Shown here: positions 5,500-25,184 of the stretch, one piece after another | How positions within the stretch are numbered: the first letter of the stretch is position 1 | Layout of the letters: each line of letters starts with the position of its first letter | Origin: a virus | Taxonomy: Duplodnaviria; Caudoviricetes | Length of the DNA: 26,922 nt | IMG/VR virus record: IMGVR_UViG_3300037313_001071 | Coordinates: 1 to 26,922 of that record | Direction: 5' to 3' (one strand) | Position numbers and translations under genes: made by a program | The notes under the pieces: generated by a model | Database searches by the model: none | The model's input: the letters and a program-made list of their open reading frames with translations, nothing else | Told to the model about the DNA's origin: nothing

Positions 5500-6060
5500 T
5501 CACGCGCCCTCTTTCAAGGTCGTGACCACACGCTGTAGCATCCAGCCGTAAATGAAATCCTCCTGCGTCACTTGCGACTTAGCAAGTTGCAAGAAGTGTC
5601 CACCCTGGCTGCACGCAATCGCGTACCGCATAACCTCAGCACCTTCAGCACCTCTCCACCTACGATAAGCACGAAAAGCGCTAAGAGTAACAGAGCCAAT
5701 CCGACCGTCCACAAACACATCTGCATAGCGGCTTCCTTGCATGTTAAACGCATTGAGCCACTCTTGGAACATCGGGGAAACGCGCGCCGGGCCCATAAGC
5801 ACCCCTGCGTCCACAAGCCTTCGCCCGACGCCTTCATCGATCTCTGCCACCTTATCAAACTTAGGCGCCGCGATGTAGCGGTCCCTGTAGATTTCACGCG
5901 CGACGGACACAGGTAGGTTCTGCATCGCACCCGTGTAACCCCATTTGGCGGCGGTGGCTTGTGTGATGCCCCAATTGGTTGGACCGCCCCGGTCATTCGG
6001 ATGATCGACAAAACCCTTCTCCCTGGCAATGACATCGTCAATCACGTCTTCAAAGTTCAT
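5500..6060 (-). CDS. Endolysin, glycoside hydrolase family 108 with C-terminal peptidoglycan-binding domain
   Basis: EKGFVDHPNDRGGPTNWGIT GH108 motif; VDGRIGSVTL and FIYGWMLQRV PG_binding_3-like end. Confidence 0.93.
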   Translation of the reverse strand: MNFEDVIDDVIAREKGFVDHPNDRGGPTNWGITQATAAKWGYTGAMQNLPVSVAREIYRDRYIAAPKFDKVAEIDEGVGRRLVDAGVLMGPARVSPMFQEWLNAFNMQGSRYADVFVDGRIGSVTLSAFRAYRRWRGAEGAEVMRYAIACSQGGHFLQLAKSQVTQEDFIYGWMLQRVVTTLKEGA

Positions 6061-6260
6061 TGCTTAGGTCCTTTGCGCCTACCGCGCATCCAGTCTTTCT
6101 CTTCCCGCCACCATTTCCGCAGCAGGTACGCAGCCTGGATAACCACATAGCAGCCCGTCAGGAAGCCAATCCAGTTCAAGCTAGTGGCCCAATACAGCCA
6201 GGTCCCGCCAACAGCAGGAGTCCCCTGTGCCGCTTGAGAAAAGAATTCACTCCTGAACAT
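6057..6260 (-). CDS. Holin (class II, T7 gp17.5-like)
   Basis: 67 aa from ATG 6260 (RBS GGAGG): hydrophobic core SLNWIGFLTGCYVVIQAAYLL with a basic C-terminal tail; ATGA overlap with the endolysin. Confidence 0.72.
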   Translation of the reverse strand: MFRSEFFSQAAQGTPAVGGTWLYWATSLNWIGFLTGCYVVIQAAYLLRKWWREEKDWMRGRRKGPKQ

Positions 6261-6405
6261 CTGATGCCTCCTTGGGTTCTGTGCAAGGCACTTCAGAAGG
6301 TTTCGCGTCATATTGCCTCTCATCGCGGGGCAGCTTGCGCACATCCCCGTTCATGTCCATGCTCTTACGCATGCACCACTTGGCGTATTCTTCTGCTTCG
6401 GTCAT
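6247..6405 (-). CDS. Small hypothetical protein (52 aa)
   Basis: Below the track cut-off. RBS AGGAG + ATG; MTEAEEYAKWCMRKSMDMNGDVRKLP...; overlaps the holin start. Confidence 0.5.
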   Translation of the reverse strand: MTEAEEYAKWCMRKSMDMNGDVRKLPRDERQYDAKPSEVPCTEPKEASDVQE

Positions 6406-6550
6406 TTCACTGCTCCTACTTAGTGAAAAGGCCGTAACAGAGGGAGGTCAGGCCTTGTTATTGCTTTGGCCCAAGCATACGACTTTGCGGGTTTGAGAAA
6501 AGGCAGGCGCCTAAGATAATTCGCGCTGACCGGGCGAAACCGGGTGTGGG

Positions 6551-6793
6551 TTAGATGCTAATGTTGAGCCCCAGCTCACGGAAGAGCTGGACCTGTAGGG
6601 CTAGTTTGTCAAGCAACACACCCTGGAGCTCGAGACTGGATTCACGCAGCCGTTCCATTTCTTCCTTGTCGCCCTGCTTACAAGCCAGAACGTACATTTC
6701 GATATTCGCTTTGGCTTTGAGCGTAATGACGTTGACCTCGTACAGGATCTTGTCCAGTACGGCTTGCTTCTGTCTGCGCTCTGCGTCTTCCAT
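6551..6793 (-). CDS. Hypothetical helical protein (80 aa)
   Basis: MEDAERRQKQAVLDKILYEV...; starts 1 nt after the nuclease stop. Confidence 0.6.
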   Translation of the reverse strand: MEDAERRQKQAVLDKILYEVNVITLKAKANIEMYVLACKQGDKEEMERLRESSLELQGVLLDKLALQVQLFRELGLNISI

Positions 6794-6794
6794 T

Positions 6795-7313
6795 TTAGCC
6801 ACCCATGGCAAATTGGACTGGCGGGAGGGGGACGGCGGGATTCCGCGTATCCAGTTCAGGATGCTCTGCACGAAGGTTTGCGCGGACGTGCCACCGGAAC
6901 CATTCCTTGAAGTCGTCATAGTCAAGCTCCACCCTGAACGGGAAATAGCTTTGCGCCGTCGCCCCCTGGAACTCGGCAACCGTAATACAGCGCCACTTCG
7001 TGCGCTGCCCAGGCTTAGCGTTTTGACGGAACAGGAGCACAGGGATCCCGTTCAGCGCCTTCGCACTCGCCAAGCACTGCGCCCACCAGGAGTTGATCGA
7101 GAGGGTTTCCTGCCTCTTTACCTCAATGGCAAAACCATACGTGCCAACCAAGTCACATCCGCCCACAGCGCTTTGCTGCTGGTTGCGCTGGACCTGCGGC
7201 TTTGTGAGCGCGGGTAGGCCAAGCTGGGCCCTGACCACAGTGATGATGGCGTTAAGGTCGTCAGCGATTTCCCGCTCACCCACCTGGCCCTTGGCACGTA
7301 TGTTGATGCCCAT
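6795..7313 (-). CDS. PD-(D/E)XK endonuclease / Holliday junction resolvase-like
   Basis: RAKGQVGEREIA...GCDL...AIEVKRQE...PVLLFR motif order of Hjc-like resolvases. Confidence 0.8.
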   Translation of the reverse strand: MGINIRAKGQVGEREIADDLNAIITVVRAQLGLPALTKPQVQRNQQQSAVGGCDLVGTYGFAIEVKRQETLSINSWWAQCLASAKALNGIPVLLFRQNAKPGQRTKWRCITVAEFQGATAQSYFPFRVELDYDDFKEWFRWHVRANLRAEHPELDTRNPAVPLPPVQFAMGG

Positions 7314-7320
7314 GATGTGG

Positions 7321-7536
7321 TTACACCTGTTCTTCGACGTCTTCTTCGGGGATGAAGAACGCCATTGCTTCCGGGTCACGCGCCCCGTCCAGCGTTACGC
7401 GGACGTGGGGCACGGACATCTCGATGTCGTTCTCCACAGGGTCCAGCTCGTACACCTTCGTACCCTCGGGCAGCGGGGCAATGAAGGGGCCGGTGGTAAC
7501 GAGGCGGTCACCGCGTTTGACTTTGAAGATTCTCAT
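7321..7536 (-). CDS. Hypothetical protein (71 aa)
   Basis: ATGA coupling with the upstream gene; fits operon packing. Confidence 0.6.
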   Translation of the reverse strand: MRIFKVKRGDRLVTTGPFIAPLPEGTKVYELDPVENDIEMSVPHVRVTLDGARDPEAMAFFIPEEDVEEQV

Positions 7537-7895
7537 GCTACTATTCCTTTGCTTGATGGAAGATTGAGGTCCCGCAGAGCTTGCGGAAGGGATTGGGATT
7601 CGAGGCGTGCTTTTTCGAGAATGACCTTACGCTTACCGTAATGCGCCACCTTCTCGTAGTTGTACAGCGCCTCGTGACCACGCTTGGCCTTACCCAACGT
7701 CCGTGCCGCAGCCGTTCGCCACAGCGCCTTGAACGCCTCGCCCTCGTTGAAGTCCATGCCGAGCGCCTCAATGATATCGCTGCACTCAGCCTGGTAAGGC
7801 TCACCCAATTGGTTCGGGTGCTTAACTTCAACAATGTAGTAGTTGACCGGTCCCCCGGTCCACTCTGTCGTAAAGCTCTTATCAGCCATGGTCAT
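7533..7895 (-). CDS. DUF3310-like (T7 gp1.7 nucleotide-kinase related) protein
   Basis: GGPVNYY...ECSDIIEALGMDFNEGEAFKALWR...YEKVAHY pattern. Start moved to the ATG at 7895/7889 because the longer ORF overlaps a terminator. Confidence 0.7.
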   Translation of the reverse strand: MTMADKSFTTEWTGGPVNYYIVEVKHPNQLGEPYQAECSDIIEALGMDFNEGEAFKALWRTAAARTLGKAKRGHEALYNYEKVAHYGKRKVILEKARLESQSLPQALRDLNLPSSKGIVA

Positions 7896-7964
7896 TTGTT
7901 TGTGGGGTCCGCGCAGTGTACAGGTACAGCCAACAGGATAGCAAGTGTGCGGGGATGTAAAGTC

Positions 7965-7994
7965 AAAAAAAATCCCCGCACACAGGCGGGGATT
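7965..7994 (-). terminator. Rho-independent terminator
   Basis: AATCCCCGC-CTGTGT-GCGGGGATT followed by a T run on the minus strand. Confidence 0.85.
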
Positions 7995-8988
7995 AAGATC
8001 CAAATCCATGCCAACTTACGCTGACGGAGAAAGGCGTAGGTTGCAGAGGGGACTAGCGCACAGACGTTGGATCACACCTAACAGTGGCAACTGCGTGGAG
8101 GTGCAAGGATGCGGGTCGGTAGCCCAACCAAACCGGAATTCGCCCAACCGGAAAGGGCGCGAACCTATAAACCACCGACCCGCAAAGGGGAGCTGACTAC
8201 CTGAATCAACTCTCCCTTGCGGACTGGCACAAGGGGACCTGAGCTTTTTACGTTGGAGCGGTACCCCCAACCGAGGACTGACAGATCATCGACCTCTTGT
8301 TTGCGTGACAGCAAAGGTCCGCCGGCTAGCGGTGTTGCAGCAGGAACCCCATGGCGAACATGGCAGTCGTCCTCCACTAACCGGCGGGCCTTTGCCGTCG
8401 CTTCACAGCGATACGCAAAGGATGCTGGGTTGCAAAATCCCAGCTGGCGGCGCACATTCTTTTTGATTCGACCCAAGCACCGGGGGTCTCCTCCACAATG
8501 GAGTGTGTTTTAGGGGTTGGGCAGGGTGTGCGTGGATCCTCTCGGGAAACAGAGGGCTCCCAACGCGTCCTATTCAGTAGAAACTACCTTCACATGGACC
8601 AAACGGGGGCCGGTCATCCTCCGACTCACACTCGCACAGTACCCAACCTCTAAAAGACACTCCTGGAATGTGTTTTTGGCGCTACCCGACTGCATGGTCT
8701 GATTGCATTCAGACTGGTATTGGGACCAACCTCACAGTCTTAAACGGACAAGTCCGTCTGCGATCTACACCCGGATAGCGGCAGAAACACATTCCTGCGC
8801 AGCGGTACTTCTTTGAATTGCGCCCCGCTGAGGCCCAATATACGGCACAGTCCCACGCGGCATCTCCCGACTGGCAGGTTCGTCTTTGTGCCACAAACGG
8901 GCGGGACAGAGGCTCTACGGACGTTGACACCCGTCAAGCCAAGTCGGTATCCATTTCTGGCTACCAACACCCGTTTGCTGCGTGGTGC
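7995..8988 (-). ncRNA. Candidate ~1 kb highly structured non-coding RNA
   Basis: No credible ORF; bounded by a promoter and a terminator. Many nested helices (8500-8523/8640-8663, 8319-8332/8374-8387, 8110-8122/8172-8184, 8665-8689/8771-8795, 8894-8901/8970-8977), with most imperfect pairs being G-U on the minus strand. Confidence 0.75.
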
Positions 8989-8992
8989 ATGC

Positions 8993-9021
8993 ACTATAAC
9001 ACGGGTTGCACGGATGAGCAG
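8993..9021 (-). promoter_or_regulatory. Extended -10 promoter driving the candidate ncRNA
   Basis: Minus strand TGT-TATAGT (TGn + -10 at 8993-8998), just downstream of the 9050 stop codon. Confidence 0.55.
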
Positions 9022-9049
9022 TGGGCGAAATTGTAAACGGATATTGCGT

Positions 9050-9424
9050 CTATGTTGAACTCGGATCTCCGATAGGAAGCAGGATCGACCCCTTGATATC
9101 CGTGATCGTAATTTCACCCTCAAAGGGGCAGTTAGGCACAGGGTCGACGTGCAAAACCTTCCCTTCATGCGAATATTCAATGATTACGCCGTGCTCAGGG
9201 TGCTTGTAAACGATGATTTTGTCGAAACGAGCGAACCATTTCGACCCTTCAATGTAGAAGTCCTTGTTGTCCTGCAAAGCCTTCTTAAACATCGAGGCCA
9301 GAGTGTGCGGTACATGCTTTGCCGGCTCCGGTGCCTGTTCCTGCACGTCGTGTATGACCACAGTAGGCTTTTCACACACGCACAGCTCCGGTTTCCTGTG
9401 GCATTTTGGACAAATTGTCTGCAT
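9050..9424 (-). CDS. Hypothetical protein with N-terminal Cys cluster
   Basis: MQTICPKCHRKPELCVC; RBS GGAG. Confidence 0.7.
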   Translation of the reverse strand: MQTICPKCHRKPELCVCEKPTVVIHDVQEQAPEPAKHVPHTLASMFKKALQDNKDFYIEGSKWFARFDKIIVYKHPEHGVIIEYSHEGKVLHVDPVPNCPFEGEITITDIKGSILLPIGDPSST

Positions 9425-9527
9425 TTCGCTTACTCCAAGCTCTTTTCATACCCTCACTCGCCACCTTAAACAGTGGCACGTTGAAGATTTTGCTGGCTAA
9501 TTCCGGCTTTTTGCCCGAAATTTCCAT
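9372..9527 (-). CDS. Possible small hypothetical protein
   Basis: GGAGG RBS + ATG (MEISGKKPEL...), but overlaps the next gene by about 50 nt. Confidence 0.3.
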   Translation of the reverse strand: MEISGKKPELASKIFNVPLFKVASEGMKRAWSKRNADNLSKMPQETGAVRV

Positions 9528-9540
9528 TGCCAGCCTCCAA

Positions 9541-9744
9541 TCATGCGCGATCCGGTGCATTTTCAGCCCTTTCAAGCCACATGAGGCCTATGAGAATGGG
9601 GATGTTAAGGACGGGAATGAAGGCAAAGGGGATGGTTTTGACTGTGAAGCGGACGCCGCAGAGCACGTACCAGCACAGGTTCATGGTTCCGACCACGACG
9701 GTGACAAAAATGAGCACCGTGAGCACGAATGGGTCATACGGCAT
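9541..9744 (-). CDS. Small two-TM membrane protein (67 aa)
   Basis: MPYDPFVLTVLIFVTVVVGTMNLCWYVL...FAFIPVLNIPILIGLMWL; RBS GAGG. Confidence 0.6.
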   Translation of the reverse strand: MPYDPFVLTVLIFVTVVVGTMNLCWYVLCGVRFTVKTIPFAFIPVLNIPILIGLMWLERAENAPDRA

Positions 9745-9745
9745 G

Positions 9746-10117
9746 TTAGAGGTCCTCATAGCGGATTGGTGTCCGGGTAGCACAGCTCTTTGCATGCCCA
9801 ATGCTGCTGGAACCACCGCAGGTGCAGATGTGCACGGTGCTGAATTCACCTTGGAGGTGCTGTGGCTGTGGAGAGTAAGGGCACCGCTCCAGGTGCATCT
9901 CGCTCTCGTGCGCCCCGCAGCTAACGCAGTACCCACCGCTGCGAATGTGCTTAGGCGGAACATGACCCGCCGTGTACGCCACCGCGTCCCAAGCCGCCTT
10001 CACTTCTTCCTGTAACTCGTGCCAATGCGGCGGCGCAGTCTTTTTGTGGTTCGCAGGCGTCAGCCAAATAGCCCTGCGCCAGACTTCGTATAGGATTTCC
10101 GCTCGTGCCGTTGCCAT
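9746..10117 (-). CDS. Hypothetical protein with Cys/His (Zn-binding-like) motifs
   Basis: ATG 10117 with RBS AGGAGG; CVSC...H...C and CTC...H...C motifs. Confidence 0.7.
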   Translation of the reverse strand: MATARAEILYEVWRRAIWLTPANHKKTAPPHWHELQEEVKAAWDAVAYTAGHVPPKHIRSGGYCVSCGAHESEMHLERCPYSPQPQHLQGEFSTVHICTCGGSSSIGHAKSCATRTPIRYEDL

Positions 10118-10141
10118 GGGTTTACCTCCTGCAAAACACAC

Positions 10142-10195
10142 AGCTTAACGCAGGTTAACCCGATTTGCAAGTCAGCAGGAAGATCGATTTGCAAG
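10142..10195 (-). promoter_or_regulatory. Sigma70-like promoter with tandem CGATTTGCAAG repeats
   Basis: Minus strand TTGCAA-17nt-TAAGCT. An 11-bp direct repeat at 10161-10171 and 10185-10195; the first copy covers the -35. Confidence 0.6.
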
Positions 10196-10200
10196 CCTGA

Positions 10201-10368
10201 TCAGAGATTTAGAAGTCGGATGACAGCAGCAACCCAAGCACCGCCAAAGAACATAGAGGCGCAGATGGTCAGCTCCGTGGCACCGGCCGAGACTTTATTG
10301 TGGGTGACCACACTGTAAGCGAACAGGGTGATGCTGAGGACGAAGCAGATGAAGATGAGGTAGAACAT
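10201..10368 (-). CDS. Small two-TM membrane protein (55 aa)
   Basis: Hand-read: MFYLIFICFVLSITLFAYSVVTHNKVSAGATELTICASMFFGGAWVAAVIRLLNL. TATACT lies 10 nt upstream (near-leaderless). Confidence 0.5.
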   Translation of the reverse strand: MFYLIFICFVLSITLFAYSVVTHNKVSAGATELTICASMFFGGAWVAAVIRLLNL

Positions 10369-10769
10369 AGTGGTGGGCAGTATAAGTGCTGGAAGGCTCT
10401 GATGTGGATCCTGCCCTTACGCGTGCGTGCGTTATGCGTACAGGCGTGTTATGGGCAGAAAAGGCTATTACGAAGAAATAAAGGGTGTGCATTCCATAAC
10501 GAATATCGATTTAAATTGAGAATCATGTGTTGATGGTACCTCCGCCCGGTCAGCCCAGCAGTAAAGATGGTAGCCGGTGAGGTAACAGATTACATGCTCT
10601 GCAGTTCCAGCTGGGCAGTAGACAGCACAGCAATAGGGTAGCTGTGCAGTAGCAGCTGGACTGTATGGAATGGACGTGCTAGCAGCAACAGCGGGGTAGT
10701 GCTAGCGCAGCAGGAAGTACGGATGTGCTGTACGGTACAGCGTGTGTCTAATTGGAACTTAGACTACTG

Positions 10770-11130
10770 CGTGTTAATGGTAATTGCGTTATGGGTTATG
10801 CAATGGGAATTAAGCGATTTATTAAGCGCTGTGCGTTATGGGGTAATTAAACAAAGCCCCAAAGTTCCGTTTAGAACAGATTTGCTGGGGGTTTTACTAT
10901 AGTGCTTTTACTGTTATGTTATATATATATTATTTTTACCTTATACCATTGGTAATGGGGTGTACATTAAGCGAGGCGCGTTTCTTTTATTTATTAATGT
11001 ATTTAATACCATTACCATTGGTGTTTACACACATATGGCATACCGTATAACGCATAGCGCACTACCATTACTAATACCCCATTACCAATACCCCATTAGT
11101 AATCGTATTTGCATCCAGCATAACGCGTTA
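10770..11130. repeat. AT-rich region with mirrored short repeats (candidate origin/terminus)
   Basis: GCGTTATG and TAATGG motifs on the left, ATAACGC and CCATTA motifs on the right, around a TA run at about 10920; lies at the transcription divergence point. Confidence 0.45.
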
Positions 11131-11187
11131 AACTACACAATTACGCACACTACCCCTTCCCTTAAATCCTCTTTACGTCTTTACGCA

Positions 11188-11730
11188 ATGGCACGCATTA
11201 ACCACTTTGTGCACCCTACGTGGAGTGTTACGGAATGTATAGCCCATGCGGAACAGCATGCGCAACTGTTTAGCAAACCCATTGCACAGCAGCAAGCTGA
11301 GCAGGCGGAATGGGAGCGGAAGCGCGCGGCTGTGCTAGCGGGTAAAGCGGTACCCAAAGCTAAAGCTGAGCTACCAGTGGCACAGCAGCAGGGCGTACAG
11401 CCCAACAACTACGGATATACGCCTTTGCTGTGCACGGTTACTACGGTTGAGCTAAACCGTGCTGGTGTGGTTAAGCTAGAGCTAAAGGCTAAGCTGGACC
11501 GCATGTACGCAACCATAGGTGGCACAGCAGAGGGTAAGCCAATAGATGAGTTGCGGTGCGCGTATAACCCTGCGTGTGACATGGTTACTAACCACACCGC
11601 TGCTTTCAAGCTCATGGTACAGCAGCACCCCCAGCTCAACGGTAAAATGTTTATTGCTGTGCCATGGTCAAAAAAGGTTACGCAGTTTGCCGAAGTGCAC
11701 ACACCCGCTGTGCTAATAGCTGGTCAGTAA
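11188..11730 (+). CDS. Hypothetical protein (180 aa), first gene of the right arm
   Basis: Long ORF; ATG 11188 chosen because the upstream part is low-complexity repeat sequence. Weak RBS. Confidence 0.55.
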   Translation: MARINHFVHPTWSVTECIAHAEQHAQLFSKPIAQQQAEQAEWERKRAAVLAGKAVPKAKAELPVAQQQGVQPNNYGYTPLLCTVTTVELNRAGVVKLELKAKLDRMYATIGGTAEGKPIDELRCAYNPACDMVTNHTAAFKLMVQQHPQLNGKMFIAVPWSKKVTQFAEVHTPAVLIAGQ

Positions 11731-11793
11731 TATTCATGAGTTGCTTGCGCACCACGTAGCAAGCACCGTACCAATCACCTCAAAGTAGTACGC

Positions 11794-11831
11794 ACACCCT
11801 GCAACAGCGCACACCGCTTGCAGGGTGTTTT
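11794..11831 (+). terminator. Probable terminator hairpin
   Basis: ACACCCTGCAA...TTGCAGGGTGT followed by TTT. Confidence 0.5.
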
Positions 11832-12368
11832 AGTATTATGACGCAATTTGCGTACCAGCTAACTTAGTGCTTCGGTTTGCAGCGTGCTATGGTTTTTGCG
11901 TAACCAGTCGTACAAACGCGTTTTAAGCGCTTTTTTAAGGGTACCCGCTACCCTAGTACCAACCCTCAAAAGTTTTTTGCTGTTGCGCTGACGTTTTGCG
12001 CACTTGGGTATTACTTGCACTATGCTTTGCATAGCACATTTGCAAACGAGGGTACTACAAACACTGCTGAGCTTACTACAGCGTGGGTGCTACTGCTGCG
12101 CTTGGTGCTTATGCATGAGCTTAAAACGCAGCACGACAGTAGCTACTGCTGTGTTTAACGCGTGTTAACGCCACCCGTTACCATGTTAACTACCACGTAG
12201 CCCACAACCGGCGTAGCAAGCGCACAATGTAGTCATGGGTGGTTATTGCACCACCCCACCTGAAGCGAGGGGTACCCACCCCGCGCACACAGGGTAGCTC
12301 AACGGTGTGGTGCTGGTGCTGTACAGCACCCGTGCGGTGCTCAACCGCTTACCACATCAAAGCGCTAG

Positions 12369-12384
12369 CGCTACTTTAACAATT
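12369..12384 (+). promoter_or_regulatory. boxA-like antitermination site
   Basis: CGCTACTTTAACAATT versus rrn boxA TGCTCTTTAACA (one extra base); upstream of the early operon. Confidence 0.4.
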
Positions 12385-12543
12385 CACACACTAGGTTAGC
12401 TCTACTATATTTTGGGTAACTCAACCTTTGCGCTTGCTGTGTAAGCACCGCGCATCGCAGCTCAACCTTACAGCACATCAGCTACGCGCTGGTGTGCTGT
12501 GCGGTGCAAGTTGCACCAGTAGTAACCCAACCGGAGTAACACC

Positions 12544-12813
12544 ATGTTTGTAGTCTCTAGCAATGGTACTGACCAGCTTCAACCCATCCGGGCAGTTGGC
12601 AGCACACCAGCTAACGCGTGCATCGTTTACGTTACGTTGCTCAACGCACAGCTCATTGCAAAGGTGCAGAAGGGTACGTACACAAACGCAGTAAACGGTG
12701 TTGTGTACGAAAGTGTTATTAGCTTTGACCAGCTAACAGCATTTGAAGAGCTTGCGCCATTTGTTTACGAGATGTTTGATGGGCAAGTAAAACTTACACT
12801 CAAAAAGGTCTAA
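12544..12813 (+). CDS. Early hypothetical protein (89 aa)
   Basis: GGAG-7nt-ATG after a hairpin module. Confidence 0.75.
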   Translation: MFVVSSNGTDQLQPIRAVGSTPANACIVYVTLLNAQLIAKVQKGTYTNAVNGVVYESVISFDQLTAFEELAPFVYEMFDGQVKLTLKKV

Positions 12814-12905
12814 ACCTCAAGCGCTACCGCGTATGTAGCGCACAGCTCAACCGTTCTGGTAGCTGTGCGGTGCATATGCACCTCAACCATACTAGGAGCT
12901 CAACC

Positions 12906-13169
12906 ATGTCAAACAACCTCACCCGTACCTACACTGTGCAACTGTTTATGCAGTTTGTGTTTAACGGTACTGATGAGAAGCAAGCGGAACAGCAGCTTGA
13001 TGAGCTTAAGCTGGTGCTTAAGCTGTTGCATAAGGTCGACCCAACAGAAGTTGAGTACGAGCTTGCAGACGCTGGTACCGATGAGCTGCATTACCGCATG
13101 TGGGTGTGGTGTACATACAACACAGCACCCGCTGTGCTTCAAACCATCAGCACCACCTACAAAGCGTAA
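12906..13169 (+). CDS. Early hypothetical protein (87 aa)
   Basis: GGAG-7nt-ATG; flanked by near-identical repeats. Confidence 0.75.
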   Translation: MSNNLTRTYTVQLFMQFVFNGTDEKQAEQQLDELKLVLKLLHKVDPTEVEYELADAGTDELHYRMWVWCTYNTAPAVLQTISTTYKA

Positions 13170-13255
13170 ACCTCAAGCGCTACAGTGCGTAGCGCACAGC
13201 TCAACTTCAACGTTAGCTGTGCAGTACGCACCAAACGTACTAAACCGGAGGTATT

Positions 13256-13378
13256 ATGTCACACTTTTACCACATACACCTTAAGTGTGTCCAACTGCTG
13301 TGGAAGATGTTGCAAGAGGCGCATGTAACGCATGCACCGTATTGCTGGGTCGAAAACCACGCAGAAGCACAACCGTAA
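13256..13378 (+). CDS. Early small protein (40 aa)
   Basis: Hand-read MSHFYHIHLKCVQLLWKMLQE...; GGAGG RBS after a hairpin module. Confidence 0.55.
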   Translation: MSHFYHIHLKCVQLLWKMLQEAHVTHAPYCWVENHAEAQP

Positions 13379-13402
13379 CCAACCACCAACCGGAGCCCAA
13401 CC

Positions 13403-13564
13403 ATGCACGCTACCTCAACCGCATTCGTCAACGGTCCAGTCAAGGTCCGCCAGCTCATGCGTAAAGCCACCCGCCAGCCCAGCTGGAAGGTGGCACAGCG
13501 GGCACCCAGCCCATGTGTGGTTATCAAACCACAACAGCAGCAACAACCAGAATCCCGAAGCTGA
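13403..13564 (+). CDS. Early small basic protein (53 aa)
   Basis: Hand-read MHATSTAFVNGPVKVRQLMRK...; CAACCGGAGCCCAACCATG leader. Confidence 0.6.
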   Translation: MHATSTAFVNGPVKVRQLMRKATRQPSWKVAQRAPSPCVVIKPQQQQQPESRS

Positions 13565-13650
13565 ATTTCGAATTCACCGCATTGCACATCCGTAGGGTGT
13601 GCTCTGCAGTGCATTTGCACTACCACGCAACCCAACCGGAGTAATACACC

Positions 13651-13845
13651 ATGAAAGTCGCTGCAATCGAAATCCGTTGCGAGCATGCGGAAGCTGTTAC
13701 GGATTTTATGCAAGAGCTTGAAAACCAGTGCATACAAACGCTGGAGTTCGGGCAGCTGGACAGCAACCCGCTAGTTGTGCGCATTGCGCCACACTTTGGG
13801 GACCACCTGGACCCCGAGTTGCTTGTCACGCTTAACCTCGACTAG
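13651..13845 (+). CDS. Early hypothetical protein (64 aa)
   Basis: GGAG RBS after a hairpin module. Confidence 0.7.
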   Translation: MKVAAIEIRCEHAEAVTDFMQELENQCIQTLEFGQLDSNPLVVRIAPHFGDHLDPELLVTLNLD

Positions 13846-16323: not shown

Positions 16324-17064
16324 ATGACCGACCAAACCGAGGACGATAACGTCCGCAGCTATGCGGAAAAGAGCAAGGCCAAGCGCGGGCTCAAGGTGTT
16401 CACGAAGCTCGAGGGTGCTGCGCTGGACGACGCTGCGCATGCGCTGGTGTACCAGTGTGGCGAGCGGTGGTGCTTTGAGGAGGACCAGGCGCTGAAGTAC
16501 GTGCGTGACCTGGAAGCGGGCGCCGCGAGCCAGGAGGATCCCCAGCCGGGCGAGTGCGACCTGCCCATGGAGGAAACTGTGCAGCAACAAGAAGAAGCGC
16601 CTAGCAACGGCGACCAACCTGTGCCTGGTGCTGGGTTTACGACGAGCGACGATGCACAAGGCCCCCAGGACGCAGACCACATTGCGGGCGCTGGCGTGTT
16701 CGGTGCTATGAACCACACGCTGCAGAACGTTCCGCAGGCGCCCACCGCTTCGGCTCCCCAGCAACGCAACAGTGCGCGGGGCGCGTACAAGATCGAAAAG
16801 AACCGCCCGGAACAAAACGGCATCAAGCGCCCCAGCGTGGGTGGGCTGTGCAGGCAGGTGTGGGACGCGATGGACGCGCTGCGTGAAGCACAAGAGGGTG
16901 TGGTGCCCACCTCACAACAGGCTCGTGCACTTGCTGCAGAACGTGGGTGGAACTTGAACAACGCAATGATCGAGTTCTACCAATGGCGCAAGTACAACGG
17001 TATCACGGGTCGTGCACCCAAGGCCGCGACCCAGCAACAACCACAGCAGGAGCAGCAGGCATGA
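16324..17064 (+). CDS. Phage protein with acidic low-complexity linker and basic helical C-terminal domain (possible DNA binding)
   Basis: 246 aa; C-terminal NGIKRPSVGGLCRQVWD...GWNLNNAMIEFYQWRKYNG; own promoter and GGAG RBS. Confidence 0.8.
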   Translation: MTDQTEDDNVRSYAEKSKAKRGLKVFTKLEGAALDDAAHALVYQCGERWCFEEDQALKYVRDLEAGAASQEDPQPGECDLPMEETVQQQEEAPSNGDQPVPGAGFTTSDDAQGPQDADHIAGAGVFGAMNHTLQNVPQAPTASAPQQRNSARGAYKIEKNRPEQNGIKRPSVGGLCRQVWDAMDALREAQEGVVPTSQQARALAAERGWNLNNAMIEFYQWRKYNGITGRAPKAATQQQPQQEQQA

Positions 17065-24244: not shown

Positions 24245-25184
24245 AGATTGGGACCCTGAGCGGGTTGAGTTCCCTGTCATTGCGCAACCGAAGGTAGATG
24301 GGGTGCGCGCGGGGAACTTGTTTGGCAGGCTGAGCGGGCGGAGCCTGAAACCGTTTGGGAACCTGCACGCCGGTCTGTTCTTCTCGCAAGGTGCGTTCCT
24401 GGGCTTTGACGGCGAGATGACGGCCGAAAAGGAAACACATCCCAACCTGTGCCACCTGACGACGAGCGCGCTTAATACGCACGAGGGGACGCCGTGGCTG
24501 CTGTGGATGGTGTTTGACTACCTGCGTCCAGAAACTGTCATGCTGCCGTACCATGAGCGGTATAAGCTGGCGGAACAACGCGTGAACGAGATTAAAGAGC
24601 AGCGCCCAAACCTGGGCGCGCACCTGCAAATGATGCCAAGTATGAACCATGTGGAAGACATGGAAACGCTGGAGTGCCTCATCCAAGACTGGGGCGAAGC
24701 GGGGTACGAGGGTACCATTATCCGCAACCCCTATGGCATCCACAAGAACGGGCGCAGCAGCCCCACGCACCGCGGGCTCTTGCGCATTAAGAACTTCATT
24801 GAGGTCGACTGCCAGATTCACAATGTGCGTGAAGGGCGGACGAACCTGAACGAGGCTAAGATCAACGCCAATGGGCACACTGAGCGCAGTACGCACCAGG
24901 CAAACATGGTACCGAACGGAATGGTGGGTACCATTGTCGCCGAGTTGCTGGAAGACGCCAAGCACCCGTTTACGGGTAAGGTGGTGCACAGGCGCGGGGA
25001 GCTTATTGAGTTCAGCCCTGGTAAAATGGGGCACGACGAGCGCAAGAAGTTTATGCGCGAACCACACCTCATCCAAGGTCGACGCATGAAGGGGCAAATC
25101 TTCCCTCACGGTGTCAAGGACAAGCCCCGTTTCCCCACCTTCCAGTCTTTCCGCTCGCTGGCAGACACCATCGAAAAGGATTAA
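24216..25184 (+). CDS. ATP-dependent DNA ligase
   Basis: Motif I PKVDGVR, III FDGE, IIIa VFDY, IV YEGTIIR, V LLRIK, VI PRFPTF. Confidence 0.93.
   Translation: MQLTKFQLAEDWDPERVEFPVIAQPKVDGVRAGNLFGRLSGRSLKPFGNLHAGLFFSQGAFLGFDGEMTAEKETHPNLCHLTTSALNTHEGTPWLLWMVFDYLRPETVMLPYHERYKLAEQRVNEIKEQRPNLGAHLQMMPSMNHVEDMETLECLIQDWGEAGYEGTIIRNPYGIHKNGRSSPTHRGLLRIKNFIEVDCQIHNVREGRTNLNEAKINANGHTERSTHQANMVPNGMVGTIVAELLEDAKHPFTGKVVHRRGELIEFSPGKMGHDERKKFMREPHLIQGRRMKGQIFPHGVKDKPRFPTFQSFRSLADTIEKD

What the first reader, a model, noticed from the sequence alone, without database searches (positions are those of the whole stretch)
8542..8977. Potential pseudoknots/kissing loops and an alternative pairing inside the candidate RNA
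Seen (minus-strand RNA): UCGGGAGAUG (8861-8870) is complementary, with G-U pairs, to the loop-centred UGUUUCCCGA (8542-8551). UAUUGGG (8834-8840) complements CCCAAUA (8718-8724), which lies inside another helix and would form a pseudoknot. The 5' CAAACGGG has two perfect partners (8894-8901 and 8600-8607). Inference: tertiary or intermolecular contacts, as in ribozymes or multimerising large RNAs, or a conformational switch.
Basis: partly seen in the sequence, partly recalled or inferred. Interest (0 to 1): 0.7.

Follow-up and report, generated by a model that had tools for sequence, protein, structure and literature searches.

The report
Kilobase phage RNA with swappable hairpins
The flagged pairings are in the sequence but are about as frequent as chance and remain unproven; they sit in a 1-kb protein-free stretch of a soil phage that matched no known RNA family and likely makes a large folded RNA, whose first hairpins come in alternative, structure-preserving versions among near-identical strains and may contact a host factor.

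Summary
All three complementarities are at the stated coordinates. Helices of that length occur at chance frequency. The 8869-8862/8550-8543 kiss is the best non-nested pairing, but 19 of 52 loop shuffles do as well. The distal partner of the 5' end loses by 20-27 kcal/mol once the RNA is complete. No homologue was found, so covariation at these pairs could not be tested.

The real object is larger: a minus-strand unit of about 1,020 nt (8986-7965) in a soil siphophage, between an extended -10 box and a strong terminator. Both halves fold far better than shuffles (z about -5.5), and Rfam has no match.

Four near-identical strains show no substitution over 7800-8915. Three of them swap hairpins H1 and H2 (8916-8960) for a second allele that keeps the stems, one compensatory pair and a GNRA loop. 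A relative from an RNA library recombines these alleles and skips a 132-nt hairpin domain.

Best reading: a new large phage ncRNA, loosely GOLLD/ROOL-like, with exchangeable, likely host-facing 5' modules. Tertiary contacts, multimers and function are unshown. raiA and group I intron resemblances failed.

The parts
7965..8986 (-). Predicted large noncoding RNA, about 1,020 nt; 5' end inferred from the -10 box, 3' end from the terminator
   Evidence: z -5.50 for 8495-8985 and -5.57 for 7965-8495, 0 of 100 shuffles as stable in each; minus-strand MFE -450 vs plus -417; no Rfam family
8993..9001 (-). Extended -10 promoter-like box TGtTATAGT
   Evidence: Only exact copy of this motif in the window; function inferred. 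An RNA-library contig runs over it to 9000, so the true start may lie further upstream
9030..9058 (-). Weak alternative sigma70-like site (9 of 12 matches)
   Evidence: 0.6 expected by chance
8968..8978 (-). 5' strand of closing helix P1, containing CAAACGGG
   Evidence: Pairs with 8903-8893 at probability 0.96-1.0
8943..8968 (-). Hairpin H1 with GNRA loop; two alleles among strains
   Evidence: A8958-U8953 becomes C-G, loop GAAA becomes GCAA, the G.A mismatch is replaced and one pair is added in X2, X4, X5
8910..8941 (-). Hairpin H2; two alleles with the outer stem kept and the apex rewritten (paired in the window, an open 14-nt C-rich loop in the other allele)
   Evidence: read by hand from the difference tables; X5 fully determined, X2 and X8 have unlisted deletions
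8893..8903 (-). Local 3' strand of P1 (first CCCGUUUG)
   Evidence: G8894 changed in X8
8841..8895 (-). Domain D2, weakly folded; carries the kiss strand
   Evidence: Closing stem probability about 0.5; re-sequenced in X8 with a closing stem still possible (by hand)
8861..8870 (-). Kiss candidate, 5' strand UCGGGAGAUG
   Evidence: changed at 8869, 8864, 8863 and 8862 in X8, central GGGA kept
8834..8840 (-). Pseudoknot candidate, 5' strand UAUUGGG
   Evidence: Net -1.4 kcal/mol after opening costs; invariant in X2-X5 and X8
8800..8830 (-). Hairpin D3 with a 19-nt A-rich loop
   Evidence: Probability 0.7 in the 5' fragment, 0.02 in longer folds; unchanged over 8800-8830 in X8
8665..8795 (-). Domain D4: long helix ending in a junction with three hairpins; flanked by a CAGGA direct repeat
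   Evidence: Helix probability about 1.0; 8661-8792 skipped in RNA-library contig X8, intact in DNA contigs X2-X5
8718..8724 (-). Pseudoknot candidate, 3' strand: exposed loop CCCAAU(A)
   Evidence: Unpaired about 0.9; rival partner UGGGACU 8855-8849 scores better, net -4.1
8500..8663 (-). Domain D5: 35-nt arms, 80% complementary, enclosing both distal partners
8600..8607 (-). Distal alternative partner of the 5' end (second CCCGUUUG)
   Evidence: Probability 0.48 in a transcript ending at 8590, 0.00 once D5 is complete
8542..8551 (-). Kiss candidate, 3' strand UGUUUCCCGA
   Evidence: Opening cost 0.9 kcal/mol; net kiss -5.1, matched or beaten by 19 of 52 loop shuffles
8300..8419 (-). Domain D7: long hairpin with a GUGA tetraloop side arm
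   Evidence: Probability about 1.0; U8376-G8330 becomes U-A in X9
8113..8181 (-). Long G-U-rich hairpin
7997..8073 (-). 3' branched hairpin with C/U-rich loops
   Evidence: only sub-threshold sRNA-like Rfam matches, driven largely by the terminator
7965..7994 (-). Intrinsic terminator, 9-bp stem plus U-tract
   Evidence: U-tract one shorter in X2-X5
7935..7943 (-). Second extended -10-like box in front of the downstream genes
   Evidence: function inferred
9050..9424 (-). Upstream orphan gene, 124 aa
   Evidence: No PHROG; only itself among 5.8 billion proteins; weak atlas lead 0.76
7533..7895 (-). Downstream gene of unknown function, first of the run leading to RusA-like resolvase, endolysin, terminase, portal, scaffold and capsid
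   Evidence: phrog_9919 and neighbours; capsid inferred from position and the match to L004

Best explanation
The stretch 8986-7965 encodes no recognisable protein and is likely a stand-alone large RNA gene, predicted to be read from an extended -10 box to an intrinsic terminator and to fold into long branched domains that likely act in trans as a compact scaffold whose exchangeable 5' hairpins likely contact a host factor.

Shown: the sequence, the folding signal, strain invariance of the body, and two structure-preserving alleles of H1 and H2.

Inferred: transcription, the boundaries, tertiary packing (retained GNRA loop), exchange of modules by recombination between invariant linkers, and the host-facing (decoy or regulator) role.

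Of the flagged contacts I put the 8869-8862/8550-8543 kiss at about 0.35, the UAUUGGG/CCCAAUA pseudoknot at about 0.2 and a functional 5'-end switch at about 0.1. That a structured RNA is made here at all I put at about 0.75.
For: Folding: z -5.50 and -5.57, 0 of 100 shuffles each. The minus strand is 33 kcal/mol more stable.

Boundaries: promoter-like box and terminator bracket the unit.

Strain variation: 0 substitutions over 7800-8915 in 4 of 4 strains, while 13 of 15 (X2), 12 of 13 (X4) and 12 of 13 (X5) substitutions fall in 8916-8960. These keep H1 (A-U to C-G, GAAA to GCAA, mismatch removed) and the H2 outer stem, with new G-U pairs that work only on the minus strand. X8 joins the window's H1 to the other H2 allele and a different D2, yet has no substitution over 8942-9000, 8793-8844 and 8596-8660.

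Expression, weak hint only: the only long RNA-library contigs in 6000-11000 lie inside the unit. One skips hairpin D4 exactly at a 5-nt direct repeat, the pattern described for reverse-transcriptase slippage at a folded hairpin (PMC8240250, passages).

Precedent: phage GOLLD and ROOL RNAs held together by kissing loops and A-minor contacts (PMC12286853, passages).
Against: No homologue outside near-identical strains, so the covariation rests on about four independent events, read by hand from difference tables.

The plus strand of 8495-8985 scores as well by z (-5.99). Other stretches of the window also reach z below -3, and the 5' windows 8700-9000 are not unusual on their own. Single-sequence folding is weak evidence (PMC8250186, passages).

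The RNA runs were found with this very stretch, come from one study, have depth about 2 and may hold DNA. X8 runs over the predicted -10 box.

Clustered strain differences also occur at about four other places in 15.6 kb of this phage, so patchiness alone does not show selection. No target or partner was identified; the allele-b loop motif has only chance matches in the window.
Confidence: 0.4

Rival explanations
1. Cis-acting leader of the late operon. The nascent RNA would control read-through of the 7994-7965 terminator into the resolvase, lysis, terminase and head genes, with the adjacent H1 and H2 stems binding host RNA polymerase in the manner of HK022 put RNA; the alleles would track host polymerases.
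For: Position and orientation directly in front of the late gene run. Two adjacent stems near the 5' end, one unpaired base apart in the second allele. put RNAs are two stem-loops downstream of a promoter that suppress terminators over 10 kb (PMC9378689, passages).
Against: put RNAs are about 70 nt, so 950 further conserved structured bases are unexplained. A second extended -10 box follows the terminator. Relatives with the same gene order have no comparable ORF-free stretch in front of this gene run. No sequence comparison with put was run.
Confidence: 0.2
2. Multi-seed antisense regulator. The RNA would present several C/U-rich loops that pair with G-rich ribosome-binding sites of host or phage mRNAs, as staphylococcal RNAIII does (recalled, not from a call).
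For: Many predicted loops are C/U-rich. The 3' end looks like Hfq-type sRNAs, though only below threshold. The second H2 allele opens a 14-nt C-rich loop.
Against: In the window's own allele the H2 apex is paired. No target was found in the window. The host is unknown, so host targets were not searched.
Confidence: 0.15
3. RNA-only multimer (GOLLD/ROOL-type cage) in which the flagged kiss and the duplicated CCCGUUUG act between molecules, without a specific host partner.
For: Size and phage location. The kiss is the best non-nested helix (net -5.1). The 8-mer triple has p about 0.02. GNRA retained in both H1 alleles.
Against: The kiss is no better than loop shuffles (19 of 52). X8 changes four bases of the kiss strand. 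No GOLLD, ROOL or OLE match and no tRNA nearby.
Confidence: 0.12
4. Not a functional RNA: a DNA-level element or decayed insertion rich in inverted repeats, whose strain patches are ordinary recombination.
For: Both strands fold by z. Narrow distribution. Patchy differences elsewhere in the phage.
Against: Allele changes preserve pairing and a GNRA loop. The body has no substitution while neighbouring coding DNA differs. Promoter-like box and terminator bracket it.
Confidence: 0.09
5. Ribozyme, self-splicing intron, raiA derivative or two-state switch, as the first reader suggested in part.
For: Two isoenergetic folds in a transcript ending at 8590 (0.51 vs 0.48). A window-derived motif retrieves raiA RNAs. 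A partial P3/P7-like arrangement can be drawn by eye.
Against: No family match. raiA P3b, PK1 and P1b do not form, and a raiA HMM does not hit the region. No interrupted gene flanks the unit. The local fold wins by 20-27 kcal/mol in the full RNA.
Confidence: 0.04

Closest known systems
GOLLD and ROOL RNAs (large ornate RNAs of phages and prophages)
   Same: Large, protein-free, multi-domain, phage-encoded, function unknown; candidate kissing loops and GNRA loops; variable 5' part as in GOLLD (PMC12286853, passages).
   Different: No covariance-model match even at E 10; no tRNA neighbours; about 1,020 nt; long rod-like domains; allelic hairpin cassettes among near-identical strains; multimers not shown.
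raiA motif RNA (Rfam RF03072)
   Same: A 21-base spaced motif of the window (8898-8868) is also the P1c-P3 start of Clostridium-type raiA RNAs; short likenesses near 8637-8610 and 8538-8531.
   Different: Five times longer; P3b, PK1, PK2 and the P1 closing stem cannot be formed; no CM or HMM hit; raiA is chromosomal in Bacillota and Actinomycetota (PMC10861870, part 2).
HK022 put RNA and promoter-proximal antitermination leaders
   Same: Two adjacent stems near a promoter, with a terminator in front of an operon.
   Different: put is about 70 nt with a triplex and specific conserved bases; here the stems sit inside a closing helix and are followed by 900 nt of structure; not tested by sequence.
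Group I intron (RF00028)
   Same: By eye, a GGCCUCA/UGAGGUU helix and a GACUG/CAGUC helix in P3/P7-like order.
   Different: No CM hit; these helices conflict with D4 (probability about 1.0); no split gene.

Membership tests
GOLLD / ROOL / OLE | Match to the family covariance model | tested here: not met
   No match at E<=1 in the window or E<=10 in 7900-9100
GOLLD / ROOL | Often next to tRNA genes | tested here: not met
   0 tRNA or tmRNA genes in the 27-kb fragment; the record is about 42% complete
GOLLD / ROOL | Covarying kissing loops or long-range pairs | tested here: inconclusive
   Invariant in X2-X5; kiss strand changed in X8 with partner unseen; no other homologue
GOLLD / ROOL | RNA-only homo-multimer | not testable with these tools
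   Needs mass photometry or cryo-EM
raiA motif RNA | Match to RF03072 or to a profile of raiA RNAs | tested here: not met
   0 matches at E<=10; HMM from 111 fetched raiA loci does not hit the region
raiA motif RNA | P3b stem whose loop forms the 6-bp PK1 with the P5-P6 linker; PK2; P1 with GU and GGU bulges closing the ends | tested here: not met
   By inspection against the Rfam consensus and PMC12968392 (parts 2-3): no GGC strand after the loop, no complementary linker, no P1b partner; PK-linker block p 0.999
raiA motif RNA | Ordered conserved sequence blocks | tested here: inconclusive
   Single blocks p 0.03-1.0; colinear chain reached by 2 of 200 shuffles, but the training loci were selected with the window's own motif
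Group I intron | Catalytic core model RF00028 and an interrupted gene | tested here: not met
   0 matches at E<=10; flanking ORFs are complete
Small self-cleaving ribozymes, group II intron, RNase P, tmRNA | Match to the family model | tested here: not met
HK022 put RNA | Two adjacent stem-loops downstream of a promoter | tested here: inconclusive
   H1 and H2 are adjacent but enclosed by P1; generic feature
HK022 put RNA | Sequence-specific polymerase contacts and processive antitermination | not tested
   No put sequence was fetched; activity needs an assay

The most novel reading that the evidence does not exclude
A previously undescribed class of about 1-kb phage RNA in which an invariant scaffold, locked by the flagged loop-loop contacts, displays hairpin cassettes that phages swap by recombination to retune a host target: an RNA host-range or counter-defence determinant that evolves like a modular tail fibre.
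Probability: 0.15. Interest if true: 0.85.

Novelty: new variant of a known kind. Interest (0 to 1): 0.52.

Why it matters
Large phage RNAs such as GOLLD and ROOL have solved structures but no known function. An RNA whose body is invariant while two hairpins come in natural, structure-preserving, recombining alleles offers ready-made variants for asking what such RNAs touch. It also gives one sharp prediction: the kiss partner must change in the X8-type allele. If the flagged pairings fail that test, the case shows why single-sequence pseudoknot calls need covariation.

Tried and rejected
Homologue searches that found nothing:
- BLAST against 50,697 phage and 72,556 plasmid records at E<=1.
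- IMG/VR exact patterns: 0 matches; 14 matches that were all chance.
- Translated noncoding frames used as degenerate probes: 0 of 64 and 0 of 12 candidates in IMG/VR, 0 of 597 in metagenomes, 0 of 600 in GTDB.
- Downstream gene as bait: 1 distant locus in IMG/VR and 0 of 163 candidates in metagenomes.
- Terminase and primase relatives: 5 and 3 loci. Their records have no match (0 of 5; only 14-17 nt chance matches in 2 of 3). The one near-identical record, L144, ends before the RNA.
- nhmmer over 157 held loci: nothing below E 2.
These tools may withhold records very near the window's genome and need close identity, so absence is not shown.

Families rejected: raiA; group I intron; CsrB-like GGA sponge (GGA-containing words are not among the most frequent 4- to 6-mers). 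GUUGG occurs 8 times against 2.3 expected but is not significant as a best-of-all-words count (p 0.11).

Statistics that did not help: a loop-kiss test tied to the MFE missed the candidate because the MFE does not form that hairpin (observed -1.1, null -4.5, 396 shuffles); it was replaced by the accessibility test.

My first reading as many alleles was wrong.

Other: X9's piece at 8141-8198 continues into unrelated sequence and was not used. Parts of the phage not covered by RNA-run contigs are not counted as silent. The self-alignment was not used further. Literature searches showed no description of this RNA; subscription papers and bioRxiv supplements were not searched.

Full report
Context. 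The window is a linear virus record of 26,922 nt, about 42% complete. It encodes portal, scaffold, terminase, endolysin, a RusA-like resolvase, primase, ligase and a Sak4-like protein. Its terminase is about 66% identical to those of Pseudomonas phage Iggy and of 56-62-kb enterobacterial and Acinetobacter phages, and the gene order resembles Iggy's. Near-identical DNA occurs in soil metagenomes: 9 runs hold part of the stretch, 5 of them half or more of its words, and one may be the window's source. The host is unknown.

Checking the observation. All seven segments are at the stated coordinates. Their number is not unusual. Helices of 10 bp or more with G-U number 6 against 5.8+-2.7 in 60 shuffles, and Watson-Crick helices of 7 bp or more number 4 against 4.7+-1.9. 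Only the 8-mer with two perfect partners is mildly rare: 108 of 5,000 shuffles.

The kiss and the pseudoknot. With opening costs included, the 8869-8862/8550-8543 kiss is the best non-nested helix of 8495-8985 (net -5.1 kcal/mol). However, 19 of 52 shuffles of the weakly paired bases reach that value. The UAUUGGG/CCCAAUA pair nets only -1.4, and its exposed loop has a better rival, UGGGACU at 8855-8849, at -4.1.

The switch. The local helix 8978-8968/8903-8893 has probability 0.96 and the distal one 0.00 in 8495-8985. They are level (0.51 and 0.48) in a transcript ending at 8590. Constrained energies favour the distal fold by 2.6-6.5 kcal/mol for 3' ends at 8590-8530, and the local fold by 9, 20 and 27 kcal/mol at 8510, 8495 and 7965. 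The distal fold could only be a transient state, and it would need earlier helices to melt.

What is there. The pairings lie in the 5' half of a longer unit. An extended -10 box at 9001-8993 and a terminator at 7994-7965 bracket about 1,020 nt with no recognisable gene; the two longest overlapping ORFs tested have no PHROG. Both halves fold better than all 100 shuffles (z -5.50 and -5.57). The z-score does not choose the strand, since the plus strand gives -5.99, but the minus strand is 33 kcal/mol more stable. Confident parts are P1 with hairpins H1 and H2, domains D4, D5 and D7, two further long hairpins and the terminator. The region 8890-8800, which holds both 5' strands of the flagged contacts, has no settled fold. 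Rfam gives nothing above any family threshold, and its weak matches centre on the terminator. Caveats: other stretches of the window also reach z below -3 in 200-nt windows, and single-sequence folding is weak evidence (PMC8250186, passages).

Natural variation, the main new evidence. Four strains span 7800-9200 in one contig each. None has a substitution in 7800-8915; the only listed changes there are one-base indels at 7965 and 8264. Yet 13 of 15 (X2), 12 of 13 (X4) and 12 of 13 (X5) substitutions fall in 8916-8960, and X3 has one there. Read by hand, these form a second allele of H1 and of H2. In H1, A8958-U8953 becomes C-G, the GAAA loop becomes GCAA (still GNRA), the G.A mismatch disappears and a pair is added. 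In H2 the outer stem is kept and extended by a G-U pair, while the paired apex becomes an open 14-nt C-rich loop. X5 is fully determined. The strains come from four study codes of one year and habitat and may be one campaign. The three flagged pairings are invariant in all four, which carries no information either way.

A more diverged relative. X8, from an RNA library, has the window's H1, probably the second H2 allele, and a re-sequenced D2 in which a closing stem can still be drawn. It has no substitution over 8942-9000, 8793-8844 and 8596-8660. This pattern suggests modules exchanged between invariant linkers (inference). X8 changes 8869, 8864, 8863 and 8862 of the kiss strand. Unless the partner loop, which the contig does not reach, changed too, the kiss shrinks to about four pairs. 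X8 also breaks the outer pair of the local P1 (8894) and keeps the distal partner, and the second H2 allele breaks only some pairs of the distal fold, so variation does not exclude that fold. Background: the window and the near-identical record L144 are 98.9% identical and also differ in about four clustered patches over 15.6 kb, so patchiness alone is ordinary in this phage. The preserved pairing is what counts, and it amounts to about four independent events.

Expression. In 6000-11000 the two RNA runs give only two long contigs, 8220-8477 (X7) and 8596-9000 (X8), both inside or at the edge of the unit. X8 skips 8661-8792, exactly hairpin D4, at a 5-nt direct repeat, while DNA contigs X2-X5 keep it. 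That fits reverse-transcriptase slippage at a folded hairpin (PMC8240250, passages), but a genomic deletion fits too. The runs were found with this stretch, come from one study, have depth about 2 and may contain DNA. X8 also covers the predicted -10 box. This is a weak hint only.

Homologues. None was found outside these strains; the searches and counts are listed under Tried and rejected. From memory I noticed a likeness to raiA RNA. A spaced motif taken from the window retrieved 120 GTDB loci, 112 with one fixed spacing. Of 12 loci scanned, the 6 with that spacing were raiA and the other 6 had no Rfam match. The window itself fails: no RF03072 match, no hit from an HMM of 111 raiA loci, and the P3b, PK1 and P1 elements described in PMC12968392 (parts 1-3 of 6 read) cannot be formed. 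The colinear block score (2 of 200 shuffles) is circular. A group I intron model also fails.

Mechanism. I commit, at 0.4, to a stand-alone trans-acting RNA scaffold with exchangeable host-facing 5' hairpins. The rivals are a late-operon antitermination leader like HK022 put (0.2; PMC9378689, passages), a multi-seed antisense regulator (0.15; the RNAIII comparison is recalled), an RNA-only multimer like GOLLD or ROOL (0.12; PMC12286853, passages), a non-functional or DNA-level element (0.09), and a ribozyme or switch (0.04). Against the leader: a second extended -10 box follows the terminator, and relatives with the same late gene order show no comparable ORF-free stretch there.

Novelty. It is not a member of any Rfam family tested. 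It resembles the loose class of large phage RNAs of unknown function, and I found no description of it in nine literature searches. Other papers seen: PMC10861870 (part 2 of 7), bioRxiv 10.64898/2026.09.22.753630 (parts 1-3 of 10; its supplements were not seen and could list such loci), bioRxiv 10.1101/2023.10.13.562163 (passages) and PMC12916289 (passages). None of the text read covers this element. Earlier notes of this scan held nothing for this genome or sequence. Word searches showed other unclassified large phage RNAs in other genomes, which I did not test.

Verdict. The surrounding RNA candidate is the interesting part. Interest 0.52.

Noticed in passing
window 12297-13420 (+): The motif (G)CTCAAC(C) recurs 7-10 times around the first small early genes, far above shuffles (best-of-all-words p about 0.001 for the 7-mers); possibly processing, antitermination or protein-binding sites.
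   Followed up: partly
window 8325-8375 (-): A GGAGG-led 11-codon ORF starting at 8361 (MFAMGFLLQHR) is buried in the apex of hairpin D7.
   Followed up: no
window 8403-8494 (-): A GGAGG-led 25-codon GTG ORF starts at 8480, but strain X6 changes that start and deletes two bases nearby, in two small hairpin loops at 8474-8498.
   Followed up: partly
window 13650-13799, 16500-16549, 10500-10549, 24300-24349: Clustered difference patches between the window and near-identical record L144 (up to 16 differences in 50 nt) against a 98.9% background; about 1 kb between window 10729 and 11718 does not align at all.
   Followed up: no
window 10493-12543: AT-richer, ORF-poor region between the two divergent gene blocks, with locally strong folding at 12300-13100; likely promoter, origin or genome-end region.
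   Followed up: no
window 7945-7983: A perfect 12-bp inverted repeat overlaps the terminator's 3' arm and the downstream promoter region (I6), an alternative hairpin that could couple termination to the next promoter.
   Followed up: no
window 8898-8868 (-); loci L024-L143: A spaced 21-base motif of the window is an efficient probe for Clostridium-type raiA RNAs in GTDB (112 of 120 loci with one spacing), though the window is not raiA.
   Followed up: yes
L144 16700-21562: The near-identical record extends the phage about 4.9 kb beyond the window (ssDNA-binding-like, nuclease-like and helicase-like ORFs by my reading); no reverse transcriptase was evident by eye, and about half the genome is still unseen.
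   Followed up: partly
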